DNA of 64,000 nucleotides from NCBI GenBank assembly GCA_963810095.1, contig CAWEMM010000006.1:448001-512000 (forward strand), read 5' to 3'. Source of the stretch: an uncultured Chloroflexia bacterium (lineage in GTDB: Bacteria > Chloroflexota > Anaerolineae > CG2-30-64-16). A program made the position numbers and the translations under genes. Each line of letters begins with the position of its first letter. Positions within the stretch are counted from its first letter, which is position 1. This document shows, piece by piece, positions 5,606-21,951 of the stretch. The notes under the pieces were generated by a model, which worked only from the letters and a program-made list of their open reading frames with translations, had not been told where the DNA came from and did no database searches.

Positions 5606-5679
5606 GCCCCCGTAGCTCAGGTGGATAGAGCGAGGCACTCCTAACGCCTAGGCCGAGCGTTCGAGTCGCTCCGGGGGTA
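5606..5679 (+). tRNA. tRNA-Arg (CCT), left copy / attL
   Basis: Cloverleaf: acceptor GCCCCCG/CGGGGGT, D-arm GCTC/GAGC, anticodon loop CTCCTAA, T-loop TTCGAGT; no encoded CCA. Confidence 0.95.
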
Positions 5680-5740
5680 CTTTACTACTACCTGTAGTGT
5701 TTTTCCCTCAGAATTCCCCATATATAGTGGTAGCGCTGTC
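5680..5740. repeat. Left island-end inverted repeat (IRL)
   Basis: CTTTACTACTACCTGTAGTGT...CCCATATATAGTGGTAGCGCTGTC matches the reverse complement of 21807-21867. Confidence 0.8.
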
Positions 5741-5754
5741 CAGGAGTAAGGTGG

Positions 5755-6684
5755 ATGGCGCGCATAGACCTAGGAACTCGTTTAAAAGTAGTTCAATCCC
5801 AACCGGCATCGGACATTCAGCAGGCGGGTGATTTGTTCCTGCTGGACTGCCGCGCCCGGCGTCTCAGCCCCGGCACGCTCGATAGTTACACCCGGCGCAT
5901 GCGTAGTTTTCAAGCTTGGTTCCACGAAAACGGCATCACCCGGCTCGTGGACCTCACGTCTCATCACATTCGCGCCTACCTCGTGCACCTTCAAGATCGC
6001 GGCCTGGATGACGACACGGTCATCACCGAGTACCGCGTGTTGCGGGCCTGGCTGAACTTCTGCGTCCAGGAAGAAATGATCAGCGCCAGCCCCATGAAAA
6101 AAGTACGGTCCCCGCGCTTGCCCAAGGAGATTCTGCCTGCCTTCGCGCCCGAAGATGTACAGAAGCTTCTCGCAGTCTGCCAGACGCCGCGCGACAAGGC
6201 CATCATCCTCTGCCTGCTCGACACAGGCTGCCGGGTGTCGGAGTTCGCAGCCCTCAACATCGGCGATGTGGACGCGCAGAACGGCGCGGTCCAAGTGAAG
6301 CTCGGCAAGGGCCGCAAGGACAGAATCGTATACTTGGGGGCCAAGGCCCTGCGCGCCCTGCTGAAATACCTGCGCACCCGGCCAGACTCCAAGCCCGCCG
6401 ATGCGCTGTGGCTGAGCGAGAAACGCCGGGAGCGACTGACGCTGTGGGGCCTGGAAGAGCTTCTGTCGCGGCTTGGGAAGCGCGCGGGCGTCGAGCACGT
6501 CAACCCGCACACCTTTCGGCGGTCATTCGCGCTGTGGAGCCTGCGCAGTGGCATGGACATCTTTAGCCTACAACGGCTGATGGGCCACGCCGACCTAACC
6601 GTTCTTCACAGGTATCTCGCCTTGGTAGAAGGCGACCTTGAAGCCGCACATCGGCAGCACGGCGCGGTCGACAACATGCTGTAA
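5755..6684 (+). CDS. Tyrosine recombinase/integrase (XerC/D-sized, 309 aa)
   Basis: Catalytic residues intact: TGCRVSE (R), GKGRK (K), PHTFRR (HxxR), LMGH (H), HRYL (Y); N-terminal LSPGTLDSY SAM-like region; AGGAG RBS. Confidence 0.95.
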   Translation: MARIDLGTRLKVVQSQPASDIQQAGDLFLLDCRARRLSPGTLDSYTRRMRSFQAWFHENGITRLVDLTSHHIRAYLVHLQDRGLDDDTVITEYRVLRAWLNFCVQEEMISASPMKKVRSPRLPKEILPAFAPEDVQKLLAVCQTPRDKAIILCLLDTGCRVSEFAALNIGDVDAQNGAVQVKLGKGRKDRIVYLGAKALRALLKYLRTRPDSKPADALWLSEKRRERLTLWGLEELLSRLGKRAGVEHVNPHTFRRSFALWSLRSGMDIFSLQRLMGHADLTVLHRYLALVEGDLEAAHRQHGAVDNML

Positions 6685-6806
6685 CCCTTGCTGCGGAGCT
6701 TCAGCACTGGCGGTGGTCCTTGCCGGAGGTCGTCACACGGCCACCGGCAAGTTGCATTTTGCGCCCGGCCAGCAGGCGACGATCTTGCAGTGAGGGGAAA
6801 AGAGCC

Positions 6807-7214
6807 ATGCGTACACAGACTATTCTGAACAAAGCCATGGTCCAACGCCTCTATGAGGACGTCTGGAACCGAAATGACCCGGCGGCAGCCGCCGACATCT
6901 TCGCTCAACCGAGCGGCGCCCAAGCCTATGTCAGCCAGTTTCGCGCGGCGTTTCCGGACGTGCACCGTACGGTGCTGACAATGGTTGCGGAAGGGGACGT
7001 CGTGATGACGCACTGGACAGCCCGGGCAGCCCATCTGGGCCAATGGCACGATCTCGCCGCCACCGGCGCTCGCGTGCGTTGGACAGGCGTTACCATCGCC
7101 CATGTGGCCGATGGGAAGATCGTGGCGGACCAGACGGTGTGGGACGCGCTGGGTCTGTTGGAGCAGACCGGCGCGGTCCCGCGAATCAGGGAGGCCGACG
7201 GTACTCAGCTGTAG
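6807..7214 (+). CDS. SnoaL-like ester cyclase / NTF2 family protein
   Basis: NKAMVQRLYEDVWN, FRAAFPD, VAEGDVV, DGKIV...WDALGLLEQ. Confidence 0.85.
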   Translation: MRTQTILNKAMVQRLYEDVWNRNDPAAAADIFAQPSGAQAYVSQFRAAFPDVHRTVLTMVAEGDVVMTHWTARAAHLGQWHDLAATGARVRWTGVTIAHVADGKIVADQTVWDALGLLEQTGAVPRIREADGTQL

Positions 7215-7431
7215 TCGGGGTTAGGAGCCGCACGCTGCGCGTAAGGGCCTCCCGCTTGATCGCGTCCGGAATGCGGAGGGCTGGAACCCGCCAGCCACCC
7301 CGATACATCGCGGCTGCGTAGAATGCCGATCAGCCTGCGGCTACCAGGACATATGCCGACCTCGTATCGCATGCTGCCACCAACCTCGCTAACCTATGCG
7401 AGCTTAAGCCGGGACAAGCATGTCTTTGTTT

Positions 7432-7618
7432 GTCGGGCCACACGCGTCCTGGTGCCTCAGATTGCGCGCAACCTGCCTCGGCGCGCGCCGCAAAACAGTC
7501 GTACAATAGGAACGCGCAGCAGATGACAAACACTGCTCGCCGCGCATGACGAAGCAGCATGACCGTACCAGAGGTCCTTTCTGATGTTGGAGAGCCTGTA
7601 ACGCCGAGGTATCTGATC
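7432..7618 (+). pseudogene. Decayed integrase 3'-end remnant, copy 1
   Basis: Across frames reads LRAT...QNSRTI...AQQM..HCSPRMTKQHDRT; similar at DNA level to 10456-10612 and 13111-13296. Confidence 0.7.
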
Positions 7619-7619
7619 A

Positions 7620-8411
7620 ATGAAATCGTCTGCTGAGTTGTTGGCCGCGTCGGACGCCAACATGATTGCGTTCTGGTCGGCCTATGGTCGCGGGGCTGGC
7701 TGCACCTCGCAGGTTGCGCCGGGCGTGGTCTGGGTCTATACGGGCATCCCGACCCCGTTGTTCAACTGCGTGCTGCTGTCCGACGCCGGGGCAGCGGATG
7801 TGCAGGCGACTGCGGACGCGGTCCGGGCGAAGATCGATGAGCGGGGCGTACCGGCCATGTGGTGGGTCGGCCCGCAGGCTGGGCAAGACGACGTCGCCCC
7901 GCGGCTGGAGCGGATTGGCCTTGCCCCTGCCGGGGAAGTGCCCGGCATGGCGCTCGACCTGGCGCTGCTGAATGACGCACATGAGGCGCGTCCGGAGTTC
8001 ACAGTCGAGCGCGTCCACGGGACCGTGATGCAAGCGCTGTGGGGGCACACTGCCGGGATCGGGACGGGTTTCCCGGATGAGACCAGCGCCGCGCTGGCAC
8101 AGGTTGAAGCGACCCTGAACGACTCGGAGTATCTGGCGCAGCGCCGCTATATCGGTTACTTGAATGGCGAGCCGGTGGCGACGTCGGCCCTGGTATTGGC
8201 TGCGGGAGTGGCAGGCATCTATGCCGTCGCCACAGTGCCCGCGGCCCGCCGCAGGGGCATTGGTCGGCTGATGACGGTGCTCCCACTACTGGAGGCCAGG
8301 CGGGAAGGTTATCACAGCGGCATCCTCCAGTCGTCGGCGATGGGCTATCCGGTGTACAAGGCGATTGGTTTTGAAGAGGTGAGCCGGTACAGGCTTTATG
8401 CGCAGGCTTAG
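7620..8411 (+). CDS. GNAT family N-acetyltransferase
   Basis: AGIYAVATVPAARRRGIG acetyl-CoA motif; GYPVYKAIGF. Confidence 0.9.
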   Translation: MKSSAELLAASDANMIAFWSAYGRGAGCTSQVAPGVVWVYTGIPTPLFNCVLLSDAGAADVQATADAVRAKIDERGVPAMWWVGPQAGQDDVAPRLERIGLAPAGEVPGMALDLALLNDAHEARPEFTVERVHGTVMQALWGHTAGIGTGFPDETSAALAQVEATLNDSEYLAQRRYIGYLNGEPVATSALVLAAGVAGIYAVATVPAARRRGIGRLMTVLPLLEARREGYHSGILQSSAMGYPVYKAIGFEEVSRYRLYAQA

Positions 8412-8489
8412 TGGATCGCGCCAGGCTTGCGACATCGAGGGCAGCGCGGCCTCAACCCGCGCCTGGGGGAGGCTCGGAGACATCAGCCC

Positions 8490-8790
8490 GCCGGTCGGCC
8501 TGGCACCAGCACCTATACGGTCAGCCTGTCCCTGGTTGTCGAGCCGCTTGTGAAGACCCAGGCGGGTGCCGCGCGCATCACAGCCCGCGCAGCGCGCCCT
8601 GGCCCTGGACTGGCTGTGGGCCAACTACCACGGCAAGGCCAAGTACAGAGACGTCTGGTTCGAGTGGGCAGGCAAGCCGCTGCTCATCGCGTTCGACCCG
8701 ATGACCTTAACGATGCGAGTGTCGGCAACATATCCCATCAGCTACATGATCCGGAACTGGACGGGTCGCCGCGGCGCAGATCGAAGTTGA
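8490..8790 (+). pseudogene. Frameshifted gene fragment, possibly from a glycoside hydrolase-like protein
   Basis: Protein-like segment LDWLWANYHGKAKYRDVWFEWAGKPLLIAFDP with no clean start. Confidence 0.3.
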
Positions 8791-8870
8791 CGCCTCTGAG
8801 GACTGTATGTCGTTGAACGACTTTCGCATGGCCTTCACTTAATTCACATTTTCCATCCCGACGTCCCTCT

Positions 8871-9221
8871 CTACTCTGCTTTATCCGCGGCTCTTATTAT
8901 GGTCTTGGCAGCTTCTCGGTCAACCGATTCCTGATAGATGTCGGCGTAAGTTTTCAAATCTTTGATCAGATCGTCACAGAAAGCCGCCACGTCTCTGCCC
9001 GTCACTTCGAGCACGCCTTTCCCCGCGGCCGCGCCCGCTTCAAAGAGATCAATGATCCCCGAGAGCAAACCCGTCCCCTCGCTTAGCTCTACCGGGCCGA
9101 CCTTGAAGAGATACTGCTGAATCTCCTTGTAGACAATCTGGTAGTCCCGCGGGAGCGCATTGACACGCGCCATGTGCGCTCGCCACTCTTTTTTGCCTTC
9201 GATCATATCTCGTATGCTCAT
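8871..9221 (-). CDS. DUF1048 family protein
   Basis: KKEWRAHMARVNALPRDYQIVYKEIQQYLF, GKGVLEVTGRDVAAFCDDL. Confidence 0.85.
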   Translation of the reverse strand: MSIRDMIEGKKEWRAHMARVNALPRDYQIVYKEIQQYLFKVGPVELSEGTGLLSGIIDLFEAGAAAGKGVLEVTGRDVAAFCDDLIKDLKTYADIYQESVDREAAKTIIRAADKAE

Positions 9222-9230
9222 GCTGTCCTC

Positions 9231-9578
9231 CTACTTGCCCAATTTCCTGGCGACATTGTTGTTCAGCTGCTCGCGCCACTTATCGCGATAGGACTGTGCC
9301 CCTGCTTCGCCAGCGAGCGCAGCACAGAAGCCGCTGATGTCGTCACCCAAGACCTCCTTAACGCTCTGACCCTCCGCCGCCGTTTCTTCGAGCAGGCCAA
9401 GCACACCGTCAAGAATGGGCATGAGGTTGCGACCGGCAAAGTCTGTGTACGGCCAAAGATTGGCGTTGACCTGCACCCATGCCGTTTGATAATCAGGCGG
9501 CAGCTTTTTGGCTCGCGACTCGAAGGTCTTCCATTCCTTCTTCATGTCACTGCCAGTAATCTTGTCCCAGAAGCTCAT
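9231..9578 (-). CDS. DUF1048 family protein
   Basis: MSFWDKITGSDM, RAKKLPPDYQ, EVLGDDISGFC, YRDKWREQLN. Confidence 0.85.
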   Translation of the reverse strand: MSFWDKITGSDMKKEWKTFESRAKKLPPDYQTAWVQVNANLWPYTDFAGRNLMPILDGVLGLLEETAAEGQSVKEVLGDDISGFCAALAGEAGAQSYRDKWREQLNNNVARKLGK

Positions 9579-9904
9579 TGTTTCTTCTCCTTCAACTCCC
9601 TGATTTTTGATGATACAAACCCCCATTTCGTCCAGAACGCGGCGAGTTCCTGCCGCCCCGCCTCGTTAAGCCTGTAGAACTTGCGCGGCGGCCCCATGTC
9701 GGACGGCCGTTTTTCGATATCCACGAGGTTGTTCTTCTCGAGCCGGACCAGGATGGTATAGACCGTCCCATCTACAACGTCCGAGAATCCAAGCGCGTTC
9801 AGCCGCCGGGTGATCTCGTAGCCGTAGATTTCCTCGTGGCTGATGATTTCAAGAACACAGCCCTCCAGCACGCCTTTGAGCATTTCAGTTAGGTTTTCTG
9901 CCAT
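9575..9904 (-). CDS. PadR family transcriptional regulator
   Basis: EMLKGVLEGCVL, YGYEI, GTVYTILVRLE, GPPRKFY; TTGACA-17-TACTTT promoter at ~9965-9993. Confidence 0.92.
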   Translation of the reverse strand: MAENLTEMLKGVLEGCVLEIISHEEIYGYEITRRLNALGFSDVVDGTVYTILVRLEKNNLVDIEKRPSDMGPPRKFYRLNEAGRQELAAFWTKWGFVSSKIRELKEKKQ

Positions 9905-10455
9905 GCAGCTTCACTCCCATGCTATCCTGTATGACCTGTATTGAGTGTGACTTAGTACTGGTATAAAGTAACACAGAATAGCGTGGCTGTCAATGGTTTG
10001 ATCGCCAACATCCGTCATGATAAAGGTTCTCCCACGCGTGCTGGTCAAGCTCCCCCTGGGGGCATTGACTAATACAGGCCATTGCGTGCAATCCCCCCAC
10101 CCTAGTGTCGAGCGCCGCGGGGAGTAGGATCGCTACCTGCCACAGGCCGTGTCCGCAGGCGCTAACTTAGCAGAAGCAGCGCGCCAACCCCTCTCACGTC
10201 ATCCCTTCCCGCACGCCAAGAAGAAGCAGAATAATAAGAACAATCAGAATCCACAGGTTAGGGGGTGTAAGGTTCTGATCACTCTTCTTCTTCTGATCGT
10301 TTTCCACCCGCGGCTGTGGACACCTAGCCGATGTGGCGGGCATGCACGCACAACCGCCGCCCCTCGACAGTGCGCACGAAACGCGGCTGGCTCTCGCTGT
10401 GCAGGTCGTGGCCCAGGGGATCAATCCCATGCCACAGCCGCGGTGGACCTGCGAA

Positions 10456-10612
10456 TCGCCATCATGCTGCGCAGTAAGCTTCACCGCCTGCCTACACATC
10501 GGTGGTACAATCGAGCCTGCACAGCAGATGGCAACCACGGATCGCCGCGCACGACCCGGCTGTATGACCGGACCAATTGCGCGAGCAGCCTGGCTGGATC
10601 GACAAGCTAATT
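10456..10612 (+). pseudogene. Decayed integrase 3'-end remnant, copy 2
   Basis: FTACLHIGGTIEPAQQMA then, after a frameshift, NHGSPRTTRLYDRTN. Confidence 0.8.
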
Positions 10613-10690
10613 ACACTCCGACCGTGAGGGTGAGCGGCTTCAAGGGTGCCAGGTGTATGTCTACCAGCCCATTAAGGGGAAGGTGCGAAC

Positions 10691-11074
10691 ATGGAGACGA
10701 CAACACTGCCCGACCAGCCCGATGGGAAATCACCCGCAGGGGCTGACATCCGCTTCCTGGTGGCTGGCGCAACCGGCAACATGATCCACAGCACCGTCCC
10801 GCCGCGCCAGGTAAACCGGGCGACGGTCCACGCGACGGTAAGCGAGTTCTGGTATGTCTTGGAGGGACGCGGCGAAATCTGGCGCGACAACGGTGTGGCG
10901 AGTTGCGTCACGGCGCTTGTTCCGGGCACCGCCATCGATATTCCTGTCGGGACCGCGTTTCAGTACCGCAACCTCGCGGACACCGAGCTTAAGTTCATTT
11001 GTGTCGCCATGCCGCCGTGGCCCGGCGCTGCCGAAGCGAGCTGTGTGGAAGGTATCTGGCGACCAACCGTATGA
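10691..11074 (+). CDS. Cupin domain protein (mannose-6-phosphate isomerase-like)
   Basis: HATVSEFWYVLEGRGEIW, IPVGTAFQYRN, AMPPWPG. Confidence 0.85.
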   Translation: METTTLPDQPDGKSPAGADIRFLVAGATGNMIHSTVPPRQVNRATVHATVSEFWYVLEGRGEIWRDNGVASCVTALVPGTAIDIPVGTAFQYRNLADTELKFICVAMPPWPGAAEASCVEGIWRPTV

Positions 11075-11189
11075 CCTTCGCGCGCCTACACCGGCGGCTG
11101 AACTTACCAGTGCCTCCGGGTCAACACATGCCCAGTCAATTCAAGAGTCAGTAGTTACGTCGCCTCCACACCCGGTCAACGAGGTGCTT

Positions 11190-11578
11190 ATGCAGATCAA
11201 GTTTGTCAGCATCACTGTAGAAGATCAAGAGCACGCTCTTGACTTCTACACCTCCGTCCTCGCTTCCAGAAGATGGCGGACATACCCACGGGCCAGTTCC
11301 GCTGGCTGACCGTGACCTCGGCCGATGGTATCGCGGGCACGGAACTCGTGCTGGAGCCAGCCGCCTTTCCGCCTGCCCAGGTATACCAGAAGGCTTTGTT
11401 TGAAGCGGGCATCCCAGCGACTGCCTTCATCACGCAAGACATTGCCGCCGAGGTCCAGCGCCTCCAAGCGCGGGGGGTCAAGTTCCGCGGCGAGGCGACA
11501 CATAGGGGACCGATCACGGCGGCGCTATTTGAAGACACTTGCGGAAATCTCATCAATCTCGTTCAGCCGGACGCCTGA
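11190..11578 (+). CDS. VOC/glyoxalase family protein (1-bp frameshift near 11262)
   Basis: MQIKFVSITVEDQEHALDFYTSVL joined to MADIPTGQFRWLTV...FEDTCGNLINL; GAGG RBS. Confidence 0.85.
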
Positions 11579-11621
11579 CCCGCTGTTGGGGGCGGCGTGC
11601 CCCGAAGCTGCACATTAGGGC
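11573..11621 (+). repeat. Degenerate attC-like site
   Basis: GCCTGAC (cf. RYYYAAC, contains the gene stop)...AAGCTGCAC-ATTAGGGC (cf. GTTRRRY), ATG follows at 11628; shorter than canonical attC. Confidence 0.4.
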
Positions 11622-12122
11622 GACCAAATGCTACGCGCCGGTGCGCTTGCCGCAGTGTTGCCCAACCCCCGGCCATCCCTGCGCCTGGCGCTTGCTCTAA
11701 AGGCCCACTTGCGCAAGGCTCCCACCGTAGTAGTACCCAAGGCGCGTCCGGTGCAACCTATGGCAAAAGGCGGGTGGACGACCAGGAAACCCAGCGACGG
11801 CCGCCGCCGGGCAAAGACGGTGATTTCCCGGCATGATCGCGGCTGCCGCCGAGCCAGGGACATGGCAGGCCAGAGACGGCGCGGGGTGGACGGTCCCGGC
11901 GAGGATCGACCGTACGGTCGGGCCGGGCAACATGGATGCGGGCAGGGTTCCCCACGGCCCGACGCTGCCATGACGCCAACCTGCCGACCATAGGCCAACC
12001 TCAGCTACAGTTATCGTGTCTTATATGCAGGAGACATGCCGCGTGCCGGGCGTGTAAATGACACTGGACTCTATGGAAGAGGTCGGCTGGGTCAGCGAAG
12101 CTGGAGTAGGTTAGCACAAACG

Positions 12123-12149
12123 AAAAGGCCGACGTAGCTGAACGTCGGC
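12123..12149 (-). terminator. Intrinsic terminator
   Basis: Minus strand GCCGACGT-TCAGCT-ACGTCGGC followed by CTTTTCGTTT. Confidence 0.65.
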
Positions 12150-12318
12150 AATCAGGTTGGCCCGCGCAGTTGGGCGTGCGGCCGGACGTGTCACGCGCCG
12201 CGGCCCCGCAGGCTCAACTTCGGTACTTCGCTCTGTGGGGGTCAAGCGGTGCAGCACATGCTCACCCATCCAGTCGGACGGGGTCGTCAAGGCAAACGGG
12301 CAACCGTGCTGCCGCGCG

Positions 12319-12600
12319 TCAGACGGCAACCTGATCCGGGGCATAGATGACGACGAACGTGTCCCGTCGGTCAGCAAACCGCACCTCGACAGCCCACGAG
12401 CCGGGTTGCTGATCGGGATGCACGCTGGCAAGTGTCGACTCGGGGAAGGCGGCCAGCAGCCGGGTTAGGCGCGGGTAGAATTCCTGTGGCAACTCCCCCA
12501 GGTTGCTGCCGACCGGTACGTCGTCAGCTGGTCGTGGTGAGGGCAATTCGGCGTGGGGTTGTGCTTCATAATCCGGCGTTATCATCTCGTGTAACCTCAT
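12319..12600 (-). CDS. Hypothetical protein
   Basis: ORF with protein-like composition; no recognised motif; start uncertain. Confidence 0.45.
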   Translation of the reverse strand: MRLHEMITPDYEAQPHAELPSPRPADDVPVGSNLGELPQEFYPRLTRLLAAFPESTLASVHPDQQPGSWAVEVRFADRRDTFVVIYAPDQVAV

Positions 12601-12644
12601 TCTATCCGTCGCAAGCCAAGGCTTGCGCGAGTGGCTCCAGGCTG

Positions 12645-12971
12645 TCAAATAGCCCCTACCGGCCAAGGTTCGCACGCGGCGAACATGACCAGTGCGCGCC
12701 GCCTTGCCTCAGTCTGGAGGATATCGCGCGCAAGGTGGTAGTTGAAACATGCCGACCCAGGGTGCTCCCCCGCCCGCGCCGCAATCGGGCAATCGGCCGG
12801 GCAACTGGGCAAAGCCTCACGCAGCGTCTGGTAGTTTGTGTACTCATCCAAGACCCGCGCCATGACGTGCCGGTATTCGCCCGCCCGGTGAAAATCCTCC
12901 GGTATCCGTTCCACTTGTAGAAGCAAACACAGCCGGATCGCCGTTTCCGTCACTTCGCACACGGTCATCAT
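12645..12971 (-). CDS. Hypothetical Cys-rich protein
   Basis: GGGAG RBS before MMTVCEV; CPADCP...HPGSAC motif. Confidence 0.5.
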   Translation of the reverse strand: MMTVCEVTETAIRLCLLLQVERIPEDFHRAGEYRHVMARVLDEYTNYQTLREALPSCPADCPIAARAGEHPGSACFNYHLARDILQTEARRRALVMFAACEPWPVGAI

Positions 12972-13110
12972 AGCGTCGCTCCCGAGAGGGGGAACATCTA
13001 CCCCCACCATCCAATCGTACGCCCGGCTGTCAAGCGACATTGCGTGAGGCATTGCCCGCAGAACGGTCGACGGCCCGCACCGCGTGGTGCACCCCCCCGA
13101 CAGCAGGTGA

Positions 13111-13296: not shown

Positions 13297-13341
13297 GCAG
13301 CAGAATCGCGATGCCAAAGAACCGCCGGTGGGAGGTCAAGT

Positions 13342-14699: not shown

Positions 14700-14869
14700 C
14701 GCGCCACGGTGTCCATCGTGGCCCAACGTGTAGGGCCACCTAAGCCATGGAGTCTCACACGCGTGGCCGCTGCCGAGGGTGTGCGTGCATCACCATGGCG
14801 TGCACTGTGCGATAATGAGTAGTTAGCTGGACTCACACTCACCATGACTACCAGGAAAGGAGAAGTCGC

Positions 14870-15502
14870 ATGACCTTGATCGCAATCAACGTACTGCTTG
14901 ATCCAGATGCCGCCACGGTCGAGCGGGCACAGGCGACGAACGCCCGGCTACGCGAGGACTATCCCGATGGTTTCGCCCTCGACGCCAACCACGCGCCGCA
15001 CATCACCCTGCTCCAGCGGTTTGTGCGGACGGCGGACCTTGACTGGGTCGCGCATGCTGTGGCCGAAGTGCTGCGCACAGAGCAGTCGATGAACTGGGAG
15101 AGCCATGCGACCGGCTACTATGACCTGGCCTACAAGAATCTCGGATTGGTGGGCATCGTCATCGAACCGACCGAGGATTTGCGGCGACTTCAGCAGAGGA
15201 TCATCGACGCCGTCGCCCCGTTCGCCGTGGAGAAGGGGACAGCCGAGGCCTTTGCCCCCCGCCCCGACGGCGCAGCGATCAGTCAGCCGACAGTGGACTA
15301 CGTGAACAACTTCGTCGGCACCCGCACCGGCGTGAACTACCACCCGCATTTGACCGTCGGCATAGGAACCCGCGGCTTCGTGGACGCTCTGAAAGCGGAG
15401 CCATTCCAGGCCTTTACCGTCCGGGCAGTATCCGTGAGCCTCTACCAGGTAGGGGATTACGGTGTGGCACAAAGGAAGCTCTATGACCTCCACCGTTGCT
15501 GA
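14870..15502 (+). CDS. 2H phosphoesterase (2'-5' RNA ligase-like) protein
   Basis: Two HxT motifs: PHITL and PHLTV; AAGGAG RBS. Confidence 0.8.
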   Translation: MTLIAINVLLDPDAATVERAQATNARLREDYPDGFALDANHAPHITLLQRFVRTADLDWVAHAVAEVLRTEQSMNWESHATGYYDLAYKNLGLVGIVIEPTEDLRRLQQRIIDAVAPFAVEKGTAEAFAPRPDGAAISQPTVDYVNNFVGTRTGVNYHPHLTVGIGTRGFVDALKAEPFQAFTVRAVSVSLYQVGDYGVAQRKLYDLHRC

Positions 15503-16424
15503 TCCACTACCCTCCTGGAATGATAGCCCCTCAAAGCAGGGCATCCTTGCGTTTGTCGCCAGGGTGACACAGGAAGGTTCACCCGACTTCGTGCCACTGG
15601 CAGAACGCATCGCCGTGCACGACAACGACGGCACGCTCTGGCCGGAAAATCCGCTGCCGTTTCAGGCGGCCTTTGCCATCGATGAACTTAACCGGCGCGT
15701 CCTCGCTGAGCCTGGACTCGCGGCCGATCCGATGGTGCAGGCCGCCCTGTCCGGCGACTTTGCCAAGCTCCTGGCAGGCCAACACCTGGATGGCCTCATG
15801 CAGGTCGCGGCGCTCACCCATGCTGGGATGACGACCGACGCGTTTCGTAACGCTGTGGAGACATGGCTGGCGACGGCCAAACATCCGCGGTTTGGCAGAC
15901 CCTATGACGAACTCACCTACCAACCCATGCAGGAACTCCTGCGCTATCTACGCGCCAATGGCTTCAAGAACTTCATCGTTTCCGGCGGCGGCGCGGACTT
16001 CATGCGCGTGTGGGTCGAGCGCGTGTACGGCATACCACCGGAGCAGGTTGTCGGCTCGACAACGCGGCCGACATTCGAGCTACGCAACAGCGGACCAGTG
16101 CTGACCAAGACGCTCGACTATTTATTCGTCAACGACAAGGAGGGCAAGCCGGTCGCCATTCATCAGTTTATCGGCCGACGACCGGTGATCTGTTGCGGGA
16201 ACAGCGACGGCGACCACGCCATGCTCCAGTACACGACGATCAACAACCCGCGCCCGAGTTTCGGCCTCATCGTCCACCATACGGACAACGAACGCGAGTA
16301 TGCCTATGACGCCGAGACGAAGAGCACCGGCAAGCTTGTCGAAGCCCTTAAGGAGGCCCCCAAGCGCGGCTGGGTCGTCGTGGACATGCAGCAGGACTGG
16401 AAGACCGTCTTTCAGTCCGATTAG
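15483..16424 (+). CDS. HAD-family hydrolase / acid phosphatase
   Basis: PLPSWND, DNDGTLW, IVSGGG, GNSDGD. Confidence 0.9.
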   Translation: MTSTVADPLPSWNDSPSKQGILAFVARVTQEGSPDFVPLAERIAVHDNDGTLWPENPLPFQAAFAIDELNRRVLAEPGLAADPMVQAALSGDFAKLLAGQHLDGLMQVAALTHAGMTTDAFRNAVETWLATAKHPRFGRPYDELTYQPMQELLRYLRANGFKNFIVSGGGADFMRVWVERVYGIPPEQVVGSTTRPTFELRNSGPVLTKTLDYLFVNDKEGKPVAIHQFIGRRPVICCGNSDGDHAMLQYTTINNPRPSFGLIVHHTDNEREYAYDAETKSTGKLVEALKEAPKRGWVVVDMQQDWKTVFQSD

Positions 16425-16689
16425 AGGTAACTCGTGGCAGGTCGACTTCGGTTCTGCCAGCCTACAACGGCCATAGACATCGACCGCCGAAGTGTTGCGC
16501 TGGTCGCCTGATGAAGCCTGCGCCGCAGCGCGCGGTTCAATACGCACTTAGGGACGTCGAGCGTTTGTCGCCCGCGAAGGATCGGCGCGCGCTTCTTGGC
16601 TGAAGCTGAGCGACGGACACGGTCGGAAGGGGCCGCGAGTGAATGTATCCGTCTGTAGAACAACTCGGCCCCTTGCGCAGGAGTCGGCC

Positions 16690-17220
16690 ATGCCCGCACC
16701 CGTTCTTGTCCTGCCCGGCCTCGGCAACTCGGGGCCGCTGCACTGGCAATCCATCTGGGAACAGGCACATCCCGAATTTGTACGCGTCCAACAGCGCGAT
16801 TGGGATAACCCGGTTTGCCCAGAGTGGGTTGCCGCCATCGAGGCAGCCGTGCAGCGTGCCGGGCCGGATGTTGTGCTGGTCGCACACAGCCTCGCCTGTT
16901 TGGCCGTCGCCCATTGGTCGGCCAGCCCGCATTCACCCATTAAGGCCGCGCTGCTGGTTGCAGTACCCGACCCCGACTGCCCCGAGTATCCCGGGCACCT
17001 GCTTGGTTTCTCCAAGCCCCCCACCGAGCAGTTCACCTTTCCCGCCGTCGCCGTCGTCAGCGCCGATGATCCATATAGCACACCGGAACACGCCGAGCAG
17101 CTTGCGGCCGCTTGGGGCTGTCGTGTCGTTCGTGTCGGTGCTTACGGCCACATCAACGCCAGCAGCGGCCTTGGCGCTTGGGCCGAGGGTTATGCGTTGC
17201 TGGACCATTTGCGGAGCTAA
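16690..17220 (+). CDS. RBBP9/YdeN family alpha/beta hydrolase
   Basis: PGLGNSGPLHWQ, VAHSLAC nucleophile elbow, SADDPY, GHINASSG. Confidence 0.9.
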   Translation: MPAPVLVLPGLGNSGPLHWQSIWEQAHPEFVRVQQRDWDNPVCPEWVAAIEAAVQRAGPDVVLVAHSLACLAVAHWSASPHSPIKAALLVAVPDPDCPEYPGHLLGFSKPPTEQFTFPAVAVVSADDPYSTPEHAEQLAAAWGCRVVRVGAYGHINASSGLGAWAEGYALLDHLRS

Positions 17221-17311
17221 CCCTTCGTTCGGGGCGGAGGTGCCCGCGGTTGCGGTTCTCGGTTGGGAGAGGGCATCGCCGCCGAGCAGTCCCCTGACTC
17301 CAACGTGAGAC
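17215..17311 (+). repeat. Degenerate attC-like site (97 bp)
   Basis: AGCTAAC (contains the TAA stop) CCTTCGTTCGGGG...GTGCCC/GGGCAT...CCCCTGACTCCAAC-GTGAGAC (one change from GTTAGAC). Confidence 0.55.
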
Positions 17312-17465
17312 AGTCAAGTCGCCCGGACCTGCGCGCTCCCAGAAGCTTGTGGCACCTGAGGTTGATTCCCAAGTCTGCCCGCCGCTATCGCCTGCCTGCC
17401 GGGCTAGGTTAGTGGTAGCCCCAACTGATCGAGCGGCGCGGTTTTCGACACTGCGGGCTGTGGGG

Positions 17466-18267
17466 TCACGCCGCGCCGCGTTTTAGTGTCGTGGTGCTGT
17501 CAGGGTGGCTCGACAGGCCCGCTCTGACATACGCCAGGCCCTCCAACCAATCCGCCGTCTCGTACACGCACTCACCGTCGGGCCGAAAAAGGTAGCCGCC
17601 GCCCGGGAAATCTTCATCTACGGTGCGCCCGGCCTGCGTCGCCACCGCAATCCACAGCCGGTAGTCGCGCGCGTAGGCTGCCAGGTACTGGTGGCACTCG
17701 CCGCGCCACCACGCGTAACCTGACCGCCAGTCGCGGGTGGCTTGCTCCCCATACAGACCCGGCGCAGCCACCTCAAACACCACCTGGGCACCCTGGCGGG
17801 CGCAGGCGGCGAAAACATCGGGGTTGTGGATGTCGGCGCAGATGGCGATGCCGTAGGTGAGATCGTCGTGGCGAAAAACAGGCACTGCGTTGCCCGGCGC
17901 AAACCAGGCCGCTTCCTCATCCACAATGGACACTTTGCGGTAGTAGCCGACCAAGCGGCCACCACGCGCCGCTACATGGGTGATAAATGGTTTGCCGGAT
18001 GGGTTCGCCTCTACCAATCCGGCGAGCAGGGTCGCCCGACCGTTGGCCGTCAGGGCGACAAGCGCCGCGACTTCGGGGCCATCAAGCCGCAGGATGGCCC
18101 CTGGCTGGCGCGTGGGGTCGATGTAGCCGGTCAGGCTCATTTCGGGGCACGCCACGATGCATGCGCCCTCCTGGTCGGACTGCTGGTACACGCGCTCGAT
18201 GGCGGCCAGGTTCTCGGCCACGGCCGCCTTCTCAGCAGCGCAGTTGGGCCAACGCCAGTGTTACCAT
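17466..18267 (-). CDS. Carbon-nitrogen hydrolase (nitrilase) family (frameshift near 18234)
   Basis: CPEMSLTGY, YRKV, AICAD (E-K-C triad); N-terminus MVTLALAQLRC in the adjacent frame. Confidence 0.85.
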
Positions 18268-18408
18268 GCAGGGCAGTATAGCTAGCGGTGAGAAGAGGGT
18301 CAACCAGAGCGCGTCCGGGCAGAAATCGTAATGTTGCTCACGCGGATTTCACAAATGCAGCACTAAAGTAGTGAAATCGCCGTACTACCCATGACTAAGG
18401 AGAGCCAT

Positions 18409-18705
18409 ATGGAAGGTCCGATCTACAAATTCTTCCGTGTGCAGTGGACCGAGGCGGGGTATCAGTTGGGCCAGGCGGGACGCGACAACCTGCTAGCCAA
18501 AGAGGCGGAGCTTCGGCAGCAACTCGGCATCAAGAATGTGGTGCTCTGCAACTCGTTCTGGAGTGACGAACGCTGGGCCGCGTATGGGGTTCACGAATAC
18601 GCCGATATTGAGGCCGTGCGTAAGCACAACGCCGGGATGGTAGCGCTGGACTTGTTCCGCTACCTTGAATCCGAAACGATGTTGGGCACGGCCTGGGGGA
18701 GCTAG
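18409..18705 (+). CDS. Small hypothetical protein (possibly dimeric alpha-beta barrel-like)
   Basis: AAGGAG RBS; 98 aa; GVHEYADIEAV...YLESETMLGT. Confidence 0.65.
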   Translation: MEGPIYKFFRVQWTEAGYQLGQAGRDNLLAKEAELRQQLGIKNVVLCNSFWSDERWAAYGVHEYADIEAVRKHNAGMVALDLFRYLESETMLGTAWGS

Positions 18706-19101
18706 CCAGAGCCACCGGCCAGCCGCCTGCGTCGCGCACAACTCCTGTGAGTTCGCGCATTCGGAGTTACGAGCGTGGGTTGTCGCGTGTTTGGGAAACC
18801 AGGCGGCCTCGACGGCGGGCCGGTACGACGCACGCGTGGGGTGTGGGCCGCGCGCGGCCGGGAGCCGCGCGGCAATTCATATGACTTCGAAAGACGCGCG
18901 TCTTCCCCTTTGTAGATCGTCGGCGCGTTGCACGGCGCAGTCTGCCGAACGTCTTGACGCGTCCTGGCATGGCGCGACAATCGGTTCGTGCTGCGCGCTG
19001 TGATGTTCATTCCGCCTCAGTTCCCACAGAACAAGAGCCGGAGCAGTCACACAGCGCAGCGATCTGGGTCTGACAGCGGGCGAAGGGAGCCGCCGGAGGC
19101 C

Positions 19102-20040
19102 ATGCCGACCCCACGCCAGGATACCTCGCCAGACACCGCCCTGCGAACGCATGGCCTGTGCAAGGACTACGGCCCGATCCAGGCGGTCGTCGGCCTGGAC
19201 CTCCATGTGCGCCGCGGCGAAATCTACGCCTTCCTCGGCCCCAACGGCGCGGGCAAGACCACCACGATCCGCATGCTCCTGGGTCTGGTCCGACCGACCG
19301 CAGGTCAGGCCACCCTCTTGGGCGCACGCGTTGCGGCGGGCAGCAACCACGTCTTCGCCCGCGTGGGTTACCTGGTGGAAACGGCCACGGCCTATCCCAA
19401 TCTTACCGTGCGCGAGAACCTGGACATCCAGCGGCGACTCACGCGGGCACCCCGGGCGGCGGTCGGTGATGCCATGGAGCTTCTTGGCCTTGCCGGTTCA
19501 GCCAATCGGCAGGCGGGCCAGCTATCGCTCGGCAATAAACAGCGGCTGGCGCTGGCGCGCGCCCTGCTCCACCGCCCCGAGCTACTCATCCTCGATGAAC
19601 CGGCCAATGGGCTTGATCCGGCCGGGATCATCGAGGTGCGCGAGCTGCTGCGGCGCTTGGCGAACGAGAACGGCGTGACCGTCTTCCTGTCAAGCCACAT
19701 CCTGGCGGAGGTCGCGCAACTGGCCGACCGCATCGGCATTATCCACCAGGGCCGCCTGCTTCAGGAACTCGACTACGCCGAACTCCGCCGCCGAACGCGC
19801 CTGTACCTGGAAGTCGAAGTGAGCGAGCCAGACCGCGCGGCCGGGCTGTTAGCCGCGCGCCTCGGCATCACGGCGTTGGAGCGCACGCCCGAGGGTGGGC
19901 TGCGCCTCTTTGAAGGCTTCGACCGGCGCGCCGAGATCGCGCGCACCCTGGTCGAAGCTGGACTCGACCTGACGCACCTGGCCCTGGCGCAGGAGGACCT
20001 GGAGTCCTACTTCATGCGGCTGACGGGGGGTGCCGGGTAA
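19102..20040 (+). CDS. ABC transporter ATP-binding protein (BcrA / lantibiotic-immunity type)
   Basis: GPNGAGKTT, LSLGNKQRL, LILDEPANGLDPAG, SSHILAEV. Confidence 0.9.
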   Translation: MPTPRQDTSPDTALRTHGLCKDYGPIQAVVGLDLHVRRGEIYAFLGPNGAGKTTTIRMLLGLVRPTAGQATLLGARVAAGSNHVFARVGYLVETATAYPNLTVRENLDIQRRLTRAPRAAVGDAMELLGLAGSANRQAGQLSLGNKQRLALARALLHRPELLILDEPANGLDPAGIIEVRELLRRLANENGVTVFLSSHILAEVAQLADRIGIIHQGRLLQELDYAELRRRTRLYLEVEVSEPDRAAGLLAARLGITALERTPEGGLRLFEGFDRRAEIARTLVEAGLDLTHLALAQEDLESYFMRLTGGAG

Positions 20041-20823
20041 ATGTTCGGCCAAGCCGTCGTCACCGAGTTCCTGAAGCTGCGCCGGTCCCGGATCACCTGG
20101 TTTTCGCTGCTCGCACTGTCGCTGGGGCCGCTCGGCGGCGCGCTCTTCATGTGGATCGTGCGCGAGCCGGGCCGCGCGGCGCAGCTGGGCCTGCTCGGCA
20201 CCAAGGCGAACCTCGCCGGTCTTGAGGCAACGTGGCCCGCGTACCTGGCGCTGCTAACGCTGTTTGTCGGGATCGGCGGGATGCTGCTGCTGTCCTTCAT
20301 CGTCGCTTACGTCTTCGGCCGGGAGTACGCCGAGGGCACCGCAAAGAACTTGCTCGCGCTGCCGGTGGCCCGCCCCTCGTTCGTGCTGGCGAAGTTTGTG
20401 GTCGCGGCGGCGTGGTGGCTGGCCCTCGTCGCGGCGGTCCTCGCGGAGGCATTCGTGATCGGGAGCGCGCTCGGGTTGCCTGACTTCGCGCCGGGCCTGG
20501 CCCTCAGCGCCGGGCGCAATGCGCTGCTGGCCGCAGGCATCCCGTACCTGCTCGTGCCCGTTGTCGCGTGGATCACCCTATTGGGGCGCGGCTACCTGGC
20601 CCCGCTCGGCTTCACGCTGGCGATGCTCGTGCTGGGTAACGTGTTCGCCCGGACGGGCTGGGCACCCTGGTTCCCCTGGTCGATTGGGGCGCTGCTGCTC
20701 GGCACCGTCGGTCAACCGGCGCAGACATTGCCGCCGGGCAGCTTCGTCGTGCTCGGGCTGACATTCATCGCAGGCATCGCGGCCACCATCTGGCAGTTCA
20801 ACTACGCCGACTGCAACCAGTAG
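20041..20823 (+). CDS. ABC-2 type permease (BcrB-like)
   Basis: EFLKLRRS, FGREYAEGTAKNLLALPV, WFPW; about six TMs. Confidence 0.85.
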   Translation: MFGQAVVTEFLKLRRSRITWFSLLALSLGPLGGALFMWIVREPGRAAQLGLLGTKANLAGLEATWPAYLALLTLFVGIGGMLLLSFIVAYVFGREYAEGTAKNLLALPVARPSFVLAKFVVAAAWWLALVAAVLAEAFVIGSALGLPDFAPGLALSAGRNALLAAGIPYLLVPVVAWITLLGRGYLAPLGFTLAMLVLGNVFARTGWAPWFPWSIGALLLGTVGQPAQTLPPGSFVVLGLTFIAGIAATIWQFNYADCNQ

Positions 20824-21717
20824 GCTCGCGCCGCAGCAGATAGGGGGCCGCGTCAGATTACCAAGCAGCTCCGATTCCGGCCTTTCTCTGCCCAACCAGG
20901 CCGCGCCGCCAACCTTCCAACTTACTCCAGCCTTAGCCCAAGACATCATGTCTCGATTGAAGGCCGACTGCGAACACGGATCGAGCGAATGACACCACGT
21001 TCTATCAGAAAGGTTGGCGTAGGTCGGCGGAAGCGGCTGACGTGCGCCATCCGGATGGGCTGTGGCGGGATGGCGAGAGGTGCATTGCCTTGTCGAGCAG
21101 TATCGTGGCGCACTGCCGGGGGCTGCGTGTTCAAACCCGCGCTGAACACGTCACCTGCCGCACAATGGCAATCGCTGCATGACAGCCATAAATGAGTCGG
21201 ACAAAAGCCCTGCTGTGCCATCAAGTTTTGATGGGGTCAGGCGGGGCTGTTGCGGCCACGCGATTGATCGGAGTTGAGATCTGGCGGCGCGGGGCGCTGC
21301 TGTCGATGACAAGGCGTGGGCCGTCAAGTGCGATGGCATGCGTCGAGCGGCTGCACCGGGTGCGACTGTGATGGCGCAATCAGGCCGGTCGCGTTGAAGC
21401 CCATCCTGCTGGTCGCCGGGCGGCCGCAGGGGTATGCGGTGGTCGAGCTAAATGAGCTACACGCCAGGCAGCGCGATTACGAATCGCCTAGCTGACCCGC
21501 GTGCCGCGACGGCGCGCGTCGGCTTTGGCGACGTTGTTTGCAACAACGGCCGTCGCTGGCAGCCGCTAAGATTGCGGCGTCGAGCCGCGCACGGATCGCA
21601 GGCGTGCCGGGCAAAAGTCGGGCAGCGAACTGAGCCGCTGGGATCGGAAATCTAGACGAGGTCGATGTTTTGGCAGAGTTGGTGCACAATGCGGACGATG
21701 GCTGCGAGTACTCGCTC

Positions 21718-21746
21718 TTGCGGTCTGGCCGTCGCTCCGATATAAT
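21718..21746 (+). promoter_or_regulatory. Island-encoded sigma70 promoter facing the right tRNA copy
   Basis: TTGCGG, 17 bp, TATAAT. Confidence 0.6.
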
Positions 21747-21806
21747 CATGACGCTAAGCCAGCAAAATACAGCAAGGAATTCGCAAAATTCCTAAAATTC
21801 AAAGGC

Positions 21807-21867
21807 GACAGCGTTACACCATATATGGGCATTTTCAAAGGCAGGCATACTACCGGTAGTAGAAAAA
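21807..21867. repeat. Right island-end inverted repeat (IRR)
   Basis: GACAGCGTTACACCATATATGGGC...ATACTACCGGTAGTAGAAAAA; inverse of 5680-5740. Confidence 0.8.
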
Positions 21868-21941
21868 GCCCCCGTAGCTCAGGTGGATAGAGCGAGGCAC
21901 TCCTAACGCCTAGGCCGAGCGTTCGAGTCGCTCCGGGGGTA
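21868..21941 (+). tRNA. tRNA-Arg (CCT), right copy / attR
   Basis: Identical to 5606-5679. Confidence 0.95.
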
Positions 21942-21951
21942 CTGGTTCGAT

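What the first reader, a model, noticed from the sequence alone, without database searches (positions are those of the whole stretch)
5606..21943. Island that duplicates an entire tRNA gene and frames it with 61-bp inverted repeats
Seen: the layout is tRNA(74 bp)-IRL(61 bp)-integrase-cargo-IRR(61 bp)-tRNA(74 bp). The direct repeat is identical over the whole tRNA plus 2 nt. Each IR starts exactly at the tRNA boundary on the island side. Established: tRNA-targeting integrative elements usually duplicate only part of the tRNA, and lambda-type integrases use an N-terminal arm-binding domain, which this 309-aa Xer-sized enzyme seems too short to carry. Inference: the excised circle would carry IRR-tRNA-IRL, a complete tRNA at the centre of a ~196-bp symmetric site. 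As ssDNA or RNA this folds into a cloverleaf on a long stem that extends the acceptor helix. This may define a distinct class of integrative element.
Basis: partly seen in the sequence, partly recalled or inferred. Interest (0 to 1): 0.85.

Follow-up and report, generated by a model that had tools for sequence, protein, structure and literature searches.

The report
tRNA island with armless Xer-like integrase
This is a 16-kb mobile island inserted into an arginine tRNA gene of a Chloroflexota bacterium by a small Xer-like integrase; it copies the whole tRNA and has mirror-image ends, a layout that recurs in related islands but most likely works by ordinary double-stranded recombination.

Summary
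Two identical tRNA-Arg(CCT) genes (5606-5679, 21868-21941) lie in a 76-bp perfect direct repeat. Imperfect inverted repeats of about 60 nt (46 of 61 columns) abut the repeat on the island side, and a 309-aa integrase (5755-6684) sits beside the left repeat.

The integrase is a two-domain, arm-less, Xer-like tyrosine recombinase with all catalytic residues. It belongs to a patchy, multi-copy family, mainly in Chloroflexota. In 45 of 79 homologous loci a tRNA gene lies within 400 nt upstream of the integrase.

I found both ends for 12 elements. The repeat covers the whole tRNA in 6, starts at position 7-18 in 3, is a 3' part starting in the anticodon arm in 2, and is a 5' part ending just after the anticodon loop in 1. 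All the repeats overlap only at the anticodon loop, which points to a classical crossover there in double-stranded DNA.

Significant arm inverted repeats occur in 5 of the 11 elements tested (a sixth is marginal), and all of these have whole or near-whole tRNA repeats. The arms carry paired palindromic sites placed symmetrically around the anticodon.

Whole-tRNA att identity (phage HP1) and arm-less integrases (phage Brujita) are already known. I found no circle junction or empty site. The single-strand cloverleaf model is not excluded but is unlikely. I rate this a new variant of a known kind, of moderate interest.

The parts
5554..5582 (+). Promoter-like site (TTGACT-17-TAGTAT) of the original tRNA gene, kept with copy 1
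   Evidence: no such site upstream of copy 2
5606..5681 (+). Left direct repeat (attL identity block): complete tRNA-Arg(CCT) (5606-5679) plus 2 nt
5682..5740 (+). Left inverted repeat (P' arm). It holds palindromic site 1 (CTACTACCTGTAG, 5685-5697) and site 2 (CCCCATATATAGTGG, 5716-5730). Site 2 overlaps a likely -10 region of the integrase gene (my reading of the sequence).
5755..6684 (+). Arm-less Xer-like tyrosine integrase, 309 aa. Catalytic R160, K185, H252, R255, H278, Y287 are invariant in the 15-sequence alignment.
6720..21400 (.). Cargo: SnoaL-like, GNAT, two DUF1048 plus PadR, cupin, LigT-like, HAD, CN-hydrolase, ABC-2 transporter pair, and several ORFs without a family. No phage, conjugation, relaxase or excisionase family was found among the ORFs scanned.
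21807..21866 (-). Right inverted repeat (P arm). It holds site 1' (TACTACCGGTAGTA, 21848-21861), site 2' (CCATATATGG, 21819-21828) and a non-palindromic extension (21807-21817) that fixes the inverted orientation.
21868..21943 (+). Right direct repeat (attR identity block): second complete tRNA-Arg(CCT) (21868-21941) plus 2 nt
21966..21983 (+). Terminator-like hairpin plus T run of the original tRNA gene, kept with copy 2
   Evidence: none after copy 1

Best explanation
The region is a 16.26-kb integrative genomic island that entered the chromosomal tRNA-Arg(CCT) gene by ordinary double-stranded site-specific recombination. The enzyme is its own arm-less, Xer-like tyrosine integrase.

The circular form would carry an attP of about 190 bp. 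A complete tRNA copy sits in the middle, and each flank has two palindromic sites. These flanks are the 'inverted repeats'. The site centres lie about 50 and 81-83 bp on each side of the anticodon.

Inferred steps:
- The crossover lies in the anticodon loop. There the 5-bp stem, 7-nt loop and 5-bp stem form a natural recombinase core in duplex DNA.
- The flanking palindromes are accessory binding sites, most likely for the integrase itself. They take the place of the missing arm-binding domain.
- Site 2 overlaps the integrase promoter region and could give autoregulation.

Because attP holds the whole tRNA, both junctions end up with an intact tRNA. Copy 1 keeps the host promoter and copy 2 keeps the host terminator.

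Shown: the anatomy, the enzyme type, and the family pattern.
Inferred: the crossover position in this particular element, what binds the palindromes, and present-day activity.
For: Anatomy.

Enzyme:
- Pfam finds core-binding and catalytic domains only.
- The catalytic residues are invariant in 15 sequences.
- In the AF2 model residues 1-19 are disordered and the rest is two domains.
- The nearest folds are XerA, the Tn1549 Int core, IntI4, XerH, Brujita Int and XerD.

Mobile-element behaviour:
- G000 has 11 integrase-like matches at E<=1e-5. These include paralogs directly after tRNA-Ser(GGA) and tRNA-Gly(CCC).
- 13 of 37 family genomes have a match at E<=1e-50, often several per genome.
- 45 of 79 homologous loci have a tRNA within 400 nt upstream of the integrase: 37 on the same strand and 8 on the opposite strand.

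Repeat extents in the 12 elements with both ends:
- window 1..76
- L016 -19..76
- L029 -1..75
- L138 -25..72
- L145 -4..72
- L060 140 bp
- C7 7..88
- L076 13..82
- L051 18..83
- L053 28..76
- L044 33..83
- L139 5' part to about position 42

Crossover position:
- In C7 the only 2 mismatches lie 5' of the anticodon loop.
- A stray 5' fragment at C14 ends at position 40.
- The common overlap of all repeats is the anticodon loop plus a few nt.

Flanking sites:
- The pattern C[CT]AC-N2-8-GT[AG]G occurs in 17 of 45 P' arms, against 3.2% of 8998 background 100-nt windows.
- In the window the palindromic sites are conserved between the two arms, while the roughly 19-nt spacer between them is not (about 8 of 19 by my count of the alignment).
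- Site centres: -80, -49 and +51 for the window; -81, -49 and +83 for L016. The other P' site of each (about +83 in the window, about +50 in L016) is my own count.
- No accessory gene is conserved next to the integrase. The largest shared neighbour family is in 6 loci, among the loci L012-L062 (51 listed) plus W, C7, L138, L140 and L145 whose downstream stretch was at least 300 nt.
Against: - No excised circle, tandem form or empty site was seen for this element.
- Same-genus genomes are only about 70-75% identical in the flanks and are not syntenic here, so the insertion is inferred from anatomy, not from comparison with an empty site.
- The crossover position comes from relatives whose integrases are 36-58% identical to this one. 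In this element the repeat is perfect over all 76 nt and gives no information on the crossover.
- The palindromes do not resemble the anticodon stem-loop, so a single DNA-binding surface would have to read two kinds of site. Nothing here shows that the integrase binds them.
- In L138 the P arm is displaced by about 25-35 nt, and in L076 the centre of symmetry lies 3' of the anticodon (my reading). The symmetric geometry is therefore not universal.
Confidence: 0.72

Rival explanations
1. Folded-substrate model. The excised element presents IRR-tRNA-IRL as single-stranded or cruciform DNA, a cloverleaf on a long stem. The integrase recombines this folded site with the duplex tRNA gene, as integron attC sites and CTX-phi attP do.
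For: - The enzyme is Xer-like, and the known folded-substrate systems use Xer or IntI enzymes (my knowledge).
- I joined attP in silico and folded it with DNA parameters. For the window it gives 43 arm-to-arm pairs and an MFE of -42.8, against -27.6 +/- 2.4 when one arm is shuffled. L016, L138, L145 and L076 behave alike.
- The unpaired spacer between two paired boxes loosely recalls attC.
- The integrated layout would also fit a crossover at the tRNA 3' boundary.
Against: - The fold follows trivially from the inverted repeats.
- L029, L053, L044 and L051 show no arm pairing, yet they encode the same integrase family.
- Partial tRNA repeats and stray 5' fragments in relatives break at the anticodon loop, which is not a duplex in a cloverleaf.
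- No relaxase or rolling-circle replication family was found among the island ORFs scanned.
- The integron-integrase models score far below their cut-offs: 88 against 265 bits and 65 against 435 bits.
Confidence: 0.07
2. Double-stranded integration, but with the crossover at the 3' boundary of the tRNA (the T/acceptor junction or site 1) rather than in the anticodon loop. The element simply carries its own complete tRNA gene as a passenger next to the crossover.
For: - Site 1 starts 3-6 nt after the tRNA 3' end in most close relatives.
- All repeats that include the tRNA 3' end stop within 2 nt before to 8 nt after it.
- The Islander paper lists T-stem/junction crossovers as about as common as anticodon ones (PMC4383910, Table 1 passage).
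Against: - The shortest 3' repeats in the family still start in the anticodon arm: 28 and 33, giving 49-51 bp. T-loop-type crossovers would need only about 20 bp (my knowledge).
- L139 and C14 carry 5' fragments that end just after the anticodon loop.
- No part of site 1 is found to the right of copy 2.
Confidence: 0.12
3. Inert relic or non-integrase origin. The two tRNA copies arose by segmental duplication or by decay of older elements. The integrase no longer moves anything, or it inverts the segment between the inverted repeats.
For: - No circle junction or empty site was found.
- The right 900 bp of the island (about 20950-21800) has no convincing ORF.
- Decayed relatives exist: broken integrase genes at C8 and C14, and integrase-less mini-islands in G004 and G007.
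Against: - The integrase ORF is intact with all catalytic residues.
- The repeat is 76 of 76 identical.
- The promoter and the terminator are split between the two copies.
- The same architecture recurs at other tRNAs in other genomes.
Confidence: 0.06

Closest known systems
tRNA-targeting genomic islands with anticodon-loop crossover (Williams 2002 sublocation class A, as summarised in the Islander paper PMC4383910; passages read. Williams 2002 itself was not held.)
   Same: A tyrosine integrase sits next to a tRNA gene. The island is bounded by the tRNA and a tRNA-derived repeat. In this family the repeats overlap only at the anticodon loop.
   Different: Here the displaced 'fragment' is a complete tRNA and the integrase is Xer-like. 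The Islander pipeline excludes Xer-class integrases and rejects BLAST hits that fall inside a full-length tRNA gene. Islands of this layout would therefore be missed by design.
Phage HP1 of Haemophilus influenzae. Its att identity spans the entire tRNA gene sequence (cited in PMC2853133, passage and reference 55; the HP1 paper itself was not read).
   Same: The shared att segment covers a whole tRNA gene, so whole-tRNA duplication is not new in itself.
   Different: HP1 integrase is a heterobivalent, arm-binding enzyme on a phage (my knowledge). Here the enzyme is arm-less, the element has no phage genes, and the arms are inverted copies of each other.
Mycobacteriophage Brujita integrase, described as 'simple, arm-less, directionless, promiscuous' (Lunt & Hatfull 2016). 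I saw only the title in reference lists and what PMC8138268 says about it; the paper was not held.
   Same: A two-domain tyrosine integrase without an arm-binding domain that drives integration of a mobile element. 211 of the 333 matching phage records are Mycobacterium phages; the Mycobacterium and Gordonia phage hits listed are 26-29% identical. PDB 5vfz matches at E=6e-9 by sequence and 1.1e-10 by fold.
   Different: The similarity is distant; XerA and XerD are closer. The Brujita attP layout could not be read here, so I cannot compare its flanking sites.
SNJ2-type integrases of haloarchaeal pleolipoviruses (PMC5861418, passages)
   Same: XerC/D-like integrases target tRNA genes, the P and P' arms are conserved, and integrase subgroups are coupled to particular tRNAs.
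   Different: SNJ2 has a 14-bp core at the tRNA 3' end and needs two small accessory proteins (Orf2, Orf3). Here no neighbour gene is conserved next to the integrase, and the repeats are 49-140 bp.
Integron attC and CTX-phi attP (folded single-strand substrates of IntI and XerCD; my knowledge)
   Same: Xer-related enzymes, and imperfect inverted repeats that can fold.
   Different: The integron-integrase models are not met. No source of single strands was found. The breakpoints in relatives lie where a cloverleaf has no duplex.

Membership tests
Integrative genomic island at a tRNA gene (tyrosine-integrase type) | Tyrosine recombinase with the catalytic R-K-H-R-H/W-Y set | tested here: met
   R160, K185, H252, R255, H278 and Y287 are invariant in the 15-sequence alignment. 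Pfam PF00589 at 1.5e-34.
Integrative genomic island at a tRNA gene (tyrosine-integrase type) | Island bounded by a tRNA gene and a direct repeat derived from it, with the integrase inside next to one end | tested here: met
   76-bp exact repeat 5606-5681 / 21868-21943. The integrase starts 74 nt after the left repeat.
Integrative genomic island at a tRNA gene (tyrosine-integrase type) | Excision to a circle (attP) and restoration of an empty attB | tested here: inconclusive
   No joint in the contigs of 4 runs. Zero hits for an attP-form pattern and an empty-site pattern in metagenome contigs. Relatives are not syntenic here.
Anticodon-loop (class A) crossover | The identity block starts or ends at the anticodon loop | tested here: inconclusive
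   Not informative in the window, where the repeat is perfect over the whole tRNA. Met in relatives: 3' repeats start at 28, 30 and 33; 5' fragments end at 40-42; the C7 mismatches lie only 5' of the loop.
Simple (arm-less) tyrosine recombinases in the sense of PMC8138268 | Core-binding and catalytic domains only, no N-terminal arm-binding domain | tested here: met
   Pfam domains at residues 28-116 and 131-290. AF2: residues 1-19 disordered, helical core-binding domain 20-105, catalytic domain 132-302.
Chromosomal Xer (XerC/XerD/XerA dimer-resolution enzymes) | Reaches the curated equivalog score; one conserved, vertically inherited copy acting at dif | tested here: not met
   XerA 175.9 against 220 bits, XerC 173.7 against 335, XerD 169.1 against 329.6. 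Multi-copy and patchy: 13 of 37 family genomes. Sits beside tRNA genes.
Integron integrase / folded attC recombination | IntI-specific model score, and a folded single-strand partner site | tested here: not met
   TIGR02249 88.2 against 265 bits; NF011946 64.8 against 435 bits. The fold is possible in silico, but it is not shared by all family members.
IntBrujita subgroup | Groups with mycobacteriophage arm-less integrases in a phylogeny | not tested
   Only pairwise similarity was seen: 26-29% identity in the Mycobacterium and Gordonia phage hits listed and 5vfz at E=6e-9. No tree with reference subgroups was built.

The most novel reading that the evidence does not exclude
The IRR-tRNA-IRL module works as a folded substrate. 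When extruded as a cruciform or present as single-stranded DNA, it forms a cloverleaf on a long imperfect stem, and the Xer-like integrase recombines it with the duplex tRNA gene. This would be a third class of folded-DNA recombination site, beside integron attC and CTX-phi attP. The embedded tRNA would act as an exchangeable targeting cassette.
Probability: 0.07. Interest if true: 0.85.

Novelty: new variant of a known kind. Interest (0 to 1): 0.4.

Why it matters
Islands at tRNA genes are the best-mapped class of bacterial mobile DNA. The standard mapping logic, however, expects a tRNA fragment and a non-Xer integrase (Islander). This family breaks both expectations. It is widespread in Chloroflexota, with relatives in Armatimonadota records, so such islands are probably under-counted.

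The family offers a natural series in which attP holds the whole tRNA, its 3' part or its 5' part, next to related arm-less integrases with recognisable palindromic flank sites. That series is a tractable system for asking how an integrase without an arm-binding domain builds an attP complex and controls direction. It also shows how whole-tRNA attP sites leave two intact tRNA genes, either of which may later decay.

None of this changes the basic picture of site-specific integration.

Tried and rejected
Empty site by comparison. The left flank (4400-5605) matched well only in G014 (70% identity). The right flank matched same-genus genomes at 69-75%. No tRNA lay within the fetched flanks of those matches. 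The tRNA itself is single-copy and 100% identical in G005 but sits in another gene context. No clean empty site could be shown.

Reads. One run search gave 20 runs. The best 4 hold 0.22-0.32 of the sampled words, as Logan contigs only. Laid on 4600-23000, they gave short low-depth pieces. No contig bridged either junction, and there was no joint between 5681 and 21868/21943. This says nothing for or against excision or mis-assembly.

Metagenome pattern scans for the attP form and for the empty site gave 0 hits each. Only exact matches are found, so this is weak.

Excisionase or accessory protein. There were no family hits for the small ORFs near the right end. No gene is conserved next to the integrase across loci. 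Four recurrent neighbour ORFs had no Pfam family.

Target programmed by the tRNA cassette rather than by the protein. Integrase pairs at 70% identity or more that both have a tRNA call share the same tRNA, with one exception: L055 and L060, 73.7% identical, called Ser(AGA) and Lys(TTT). This is not enough to support the idea.

Three-copy 110-134-nt repeat inside the island. It has no Rfam family. The ORFs across two of the copies show no protein similarity to each other. The consensus fold is weak.

Loci not followed up. L062 has an inverted 42-nt tRNA-His match. L086 has upstream partial tRNA matches. For L013, L015, L020, L021, L027 and others, no second copy lay within the 10 kb or less held.

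Rows dropped. C8 is not counted among the 12 two-ended elements, because its partial copies lie 87 kb away and on another contig.

Supplementary files of papers were not consulted. The supplementary tables of PMC8138268 and PMC5861418 might list relatives of this integrase.

Full report
OBSERVATION

The window (G000:C6:448001-512000) holds two tRNA-Arg(CCT) genes. ARAGORN places them at 5606-5680 and 21868-21942. Rfam places them at 5606-5679 and 21868-21941, 74 nt each. They lie in a perfect 76-nt direct repeat, 5606-5681 and 21868-21943.

The sequence just inside the left repeat (5681-5740) aligns with the reverse complement of the sequence just inside the right repeat (21807-21866). The alignment has 46 matches in 61 columns and a score of 43. 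The maximum was 26 in 1000 shuffles and 27 in 1000 random pairs of window segments.

A promoter-like site precedes only copy 1, and a terminator-like hairpin follows only copy 2. One promoter-tRNA-terminator unit was therefore split by a 16,262-bp insertion.

THE ENZYME AND THE CARGO

The ORF 5755-6684 (309 aa) has a SAM-like core-binding domain and a Phage_integrase catalytic domain, and nothing else. R160, K185, H252, R255, H278 and Y287 are invariant among 15 aligned family members.

The AF2 model (mean pLDDT 86.7) has a disordered N-terminus (residues 1-19), a helical domain (20-105) and a catalytic domain (132-302). Foldseek ranks XerA, the Tn1549 integrase core, IntI4, XerH, Brujita integrase and XerD highest. 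The NCBIfam Xer and integron-integrase models all score well below their cut-offs.

The cargo is a mix of small-molecule enzymes, a PadR/DUF1048 set and an ABC-2 transporter. No phage, conjugation, relaxase or excisionase family appeared among the ORFs scanned. GC content is about 0.55-0.68 across the island, against 0.655 for the contig.

THE FAMILY

The protein has at least 833 relatives at E<=1e-20 in the large protein collection. The few that carry a name are called Caldilineales.

In the window's own genome there are three closer paralogs, two of them broken genes:
- one (47% identical) directly after tRNA-Ser(GGA);
- one broken gene directly after tRNA-Gly(CCC);
- one frameshifted gene after a 5' fragment of tRNA-Gly(TCC).

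In 37 genomes of the same family, 13 have a match at E<=1e-50, often several. This is a patchy, multi-copy distribution, not that of a housekeeping Xer.

Of 79 homologous loci from public genomes, 45 have a tRNA gene within 400 nt upstream of the integrase match. In 37 the tRNA is on the same strand and in 8 on the opposite strand. Most of the loci are from Chloroflexota, with some from Armatimonadota and others. Many different tRNAs are used.

HOW MUCH OF THE tRNA IS REPEATED

I could define both ends for 12 elements.
- Whole tRNA, 6 elements: the window (positions 1..76), L016 (-19..76), L029 (-1..75), L138 (-25..72 of 74, 97 of 99 identical), L145 (-4..72), L060 (140 bp, tRNA on the opposite strand).
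- Nearly whole, 3 elements: C7 (7..88 of 89), L076 (13..82), L051 (18..83).
- A 3' part starting in the anticodon arm, 2 elements: L053 (28..76), L044 (33..83).
- A 5' part ending just after the anticodon stem, 1 element: L139 (to about position 42), with the intact tRNA at the far end.

Two further observations bear on the crossover. A stray 5' fragment at C14 ends at position 40. Two attP-like copies of a tRNA-Gly(CCC) 3' part start at position 30. In C7 the only two mismatches between the copies lie 5' of the anticodon loop.

The only segment common to all these repeats is the anticodon loop with a few flanking bases. This is the classical signature of a crossover in the anticodon loop of duplex DNA. 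I know this class from the Islander paper's summary, because Williams 2002 was not held. Whole-tRNA repeats are therefore frequent in this family, but they are one end of a continuum.

THE INVERTED REPEATS

Arm-to-arm inverted repeats that no shuffle reached occur in 5 elements: the window (41-43), L076 (48), L016 (38), L145 (35) and L138 (31). C7 is marginal (27 against a maximum of 25). L029, L051, L044, L053 and L060 have none. L139 was not tested.

All elements with such repeats have whole or near-whole tRNA repeats. The numbers are small and the elements were not chosen blind.

Within the arms the conserved parts are short palindromes. The pattern C[CT]AC-N2-8-GT[AG]G occurs in 17 of 45 P' arms, against 3.2% of 8998 background windows. 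The first site starts 3-6 nt after the tRNA in most close relatives.

In the window the two palindromes are conserved between the arms, but the spacer between them is not (about 8 of 19 by my count of the alignment). A non-palindromic 11-mer fixes the inverted orientation.

Site centres lie at -80, -49 and +51 in the window and at -81, -49 and +83 in L016, relative to the anticodon. The remaining P' site of each, at about +83 and about +50, is my own count. In L053, which lacks the tRNA 5' half, unrelated spacer keeps the P-arm site at a similar distance (my count). L138 and L076 depart from this symmetry.

No gene is conserved next to the integrase. The integrase itself is therefore the most economical candidate for binding these sites, but that is inference.

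MECHANISM

The best reading is a duplex attP of about 190 bp with four accessory palindromes around a central tRNA copy. It recombines with the chromosomal tRNA gene at the anticodon loop.

With a whole tRNA in attP, both junctions regenerate a full gene. In L016 and L138 the repeat even reaches into the -10 region upstream of the tRNA (my reading). That could keep the right-hand copy expressed. It also fits L139, where only the right-hand copy survives.

The folded single-strand model cannot be excluded, but it is less likely for these reasons:
- the in-silico fold is a trivial consequence of the repeats;
- four family members do not fold this way;
- the breakpoints lie where a cloverleaf has no duplex;
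- the island shows no source of single strands.

COMPARISON WITH WHAT IS KNOWN

- Whole-tRNA att identity is cited for phage HP1 (PMC2853133, passage and reference list).
- Arm-less integrases on mobile elements are recognised: the IntBrujita and IntKX subgroups and XerT (PMC8138268, passages). That paper found excisionase genes only together with arm-binding integrases (passage).
- SNJ2-type Xer-like integrases target tRNAs but need two helper proteins and use a 14-bp core (PMC5861418, passages).
- The Islander pipeline excludes Xer-class integrases and rejects hits inside full-length tRNA genes (PMC4383910, passage). It would not report this island.
- My searches for a description of this family or layout found nothing specific (listings and abstracts only). 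That is not proof of absence. Subscription journals and supplementary files were not searched.

VERDICT

This is a tRNA-integrating genomic island of a known general kind with three recurrent traits:
- an arm-less Xer-like integrase;
- palindromic sites on both attP arms, often as long inverted repeats;
- frequent whole-tRNA duplication.

I call it a new variant of a known kind and give it an interest of 0.4. Activity, crossover position and the binding partner of the palindromes remain to be shown at the bench.

Noticed in passing
L113 (G004:C51) 1501-2106 and L115 (G007:C4) 1501-2107: In two same-genus genomes the tRNA-Arg(CCT) is followed by about 480 bp and then a partial tRNA copy (positions 22-74 and 19-76). 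The 480 bp hold two small ORFs that look like a HicB/HicA-type antitoxin-toxin pair (my reading of the translation; no family search was run). This is an integrase-less mini-island at the same site.
   Followed up: partly
window 7438-7571, 10481-10610, 13120-13253: A non-coding repeat of about 110-134 nt in three copies (63-79% identical), found only inside this island in the genome. Each copy lies upstream of a plus-strand ORF. The repeat has a TACAAT-like box and an internal inverted repeat (GTCGTACA / TGTATGAC). It has no Rfam match and only a weak consensus fold. It may be a shared promoter-operator.
   Followed up: partly
G000:C8:140366-140442 and G000:C9:714227-714299: Two further copies of the tRNA-Gly(CCC) 3' part. 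They start at the anticodon loop, continue into the site-1 palindrome, and are preceded by a shared unrelated sequence. These are attP-like junctions, one of them at a contig end. They may come from tandem or unintegrated copies of the element whose broken integrase gene sits at C8:54021.
   Followed up: partly
G000:C14:1962-2045: ARAGORN reports a tRNA of undetermined identity with a four-base anticodon (taaa) on the minus strand.
   Followed up: no
alignment A1, residues about 8-15 of the window integrase: A short motif of the type (T/I)(R/Q)L(K/R)(V/I)(V/L) is conserved in the N-terminal tail, ahead of the core-binding domain. The tail is disordered in the monomer model. It might pair between subunits or contact DNA; that is speculation.
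   Followed up: no
L055 and L060: Two integrases 73.7% identical lie beside different tRNA calls, Ser(AGA) and Lys(TTT), both on the opposite strand. This could be a recent switch of target or a doubtful tRNA call.
   Followed up: no
L016 9809-9828 and L138 516-540 (oriented): In two whole-tRNA elements the repeat extends 19-25 bp upstream of the tRNA into what looks like the -10 box of the tRNA promoter. The element-borne copy may therefore bring part of a promoter.
   Followed up: partly
window 32798-32871 and 33049-33122: Two tRNA-Met(CAT) genes in tandem next to tRNA-Leu(CAG). The same trio lies beside integrase homologs in L019, L024 and L033.
   Followed up: no
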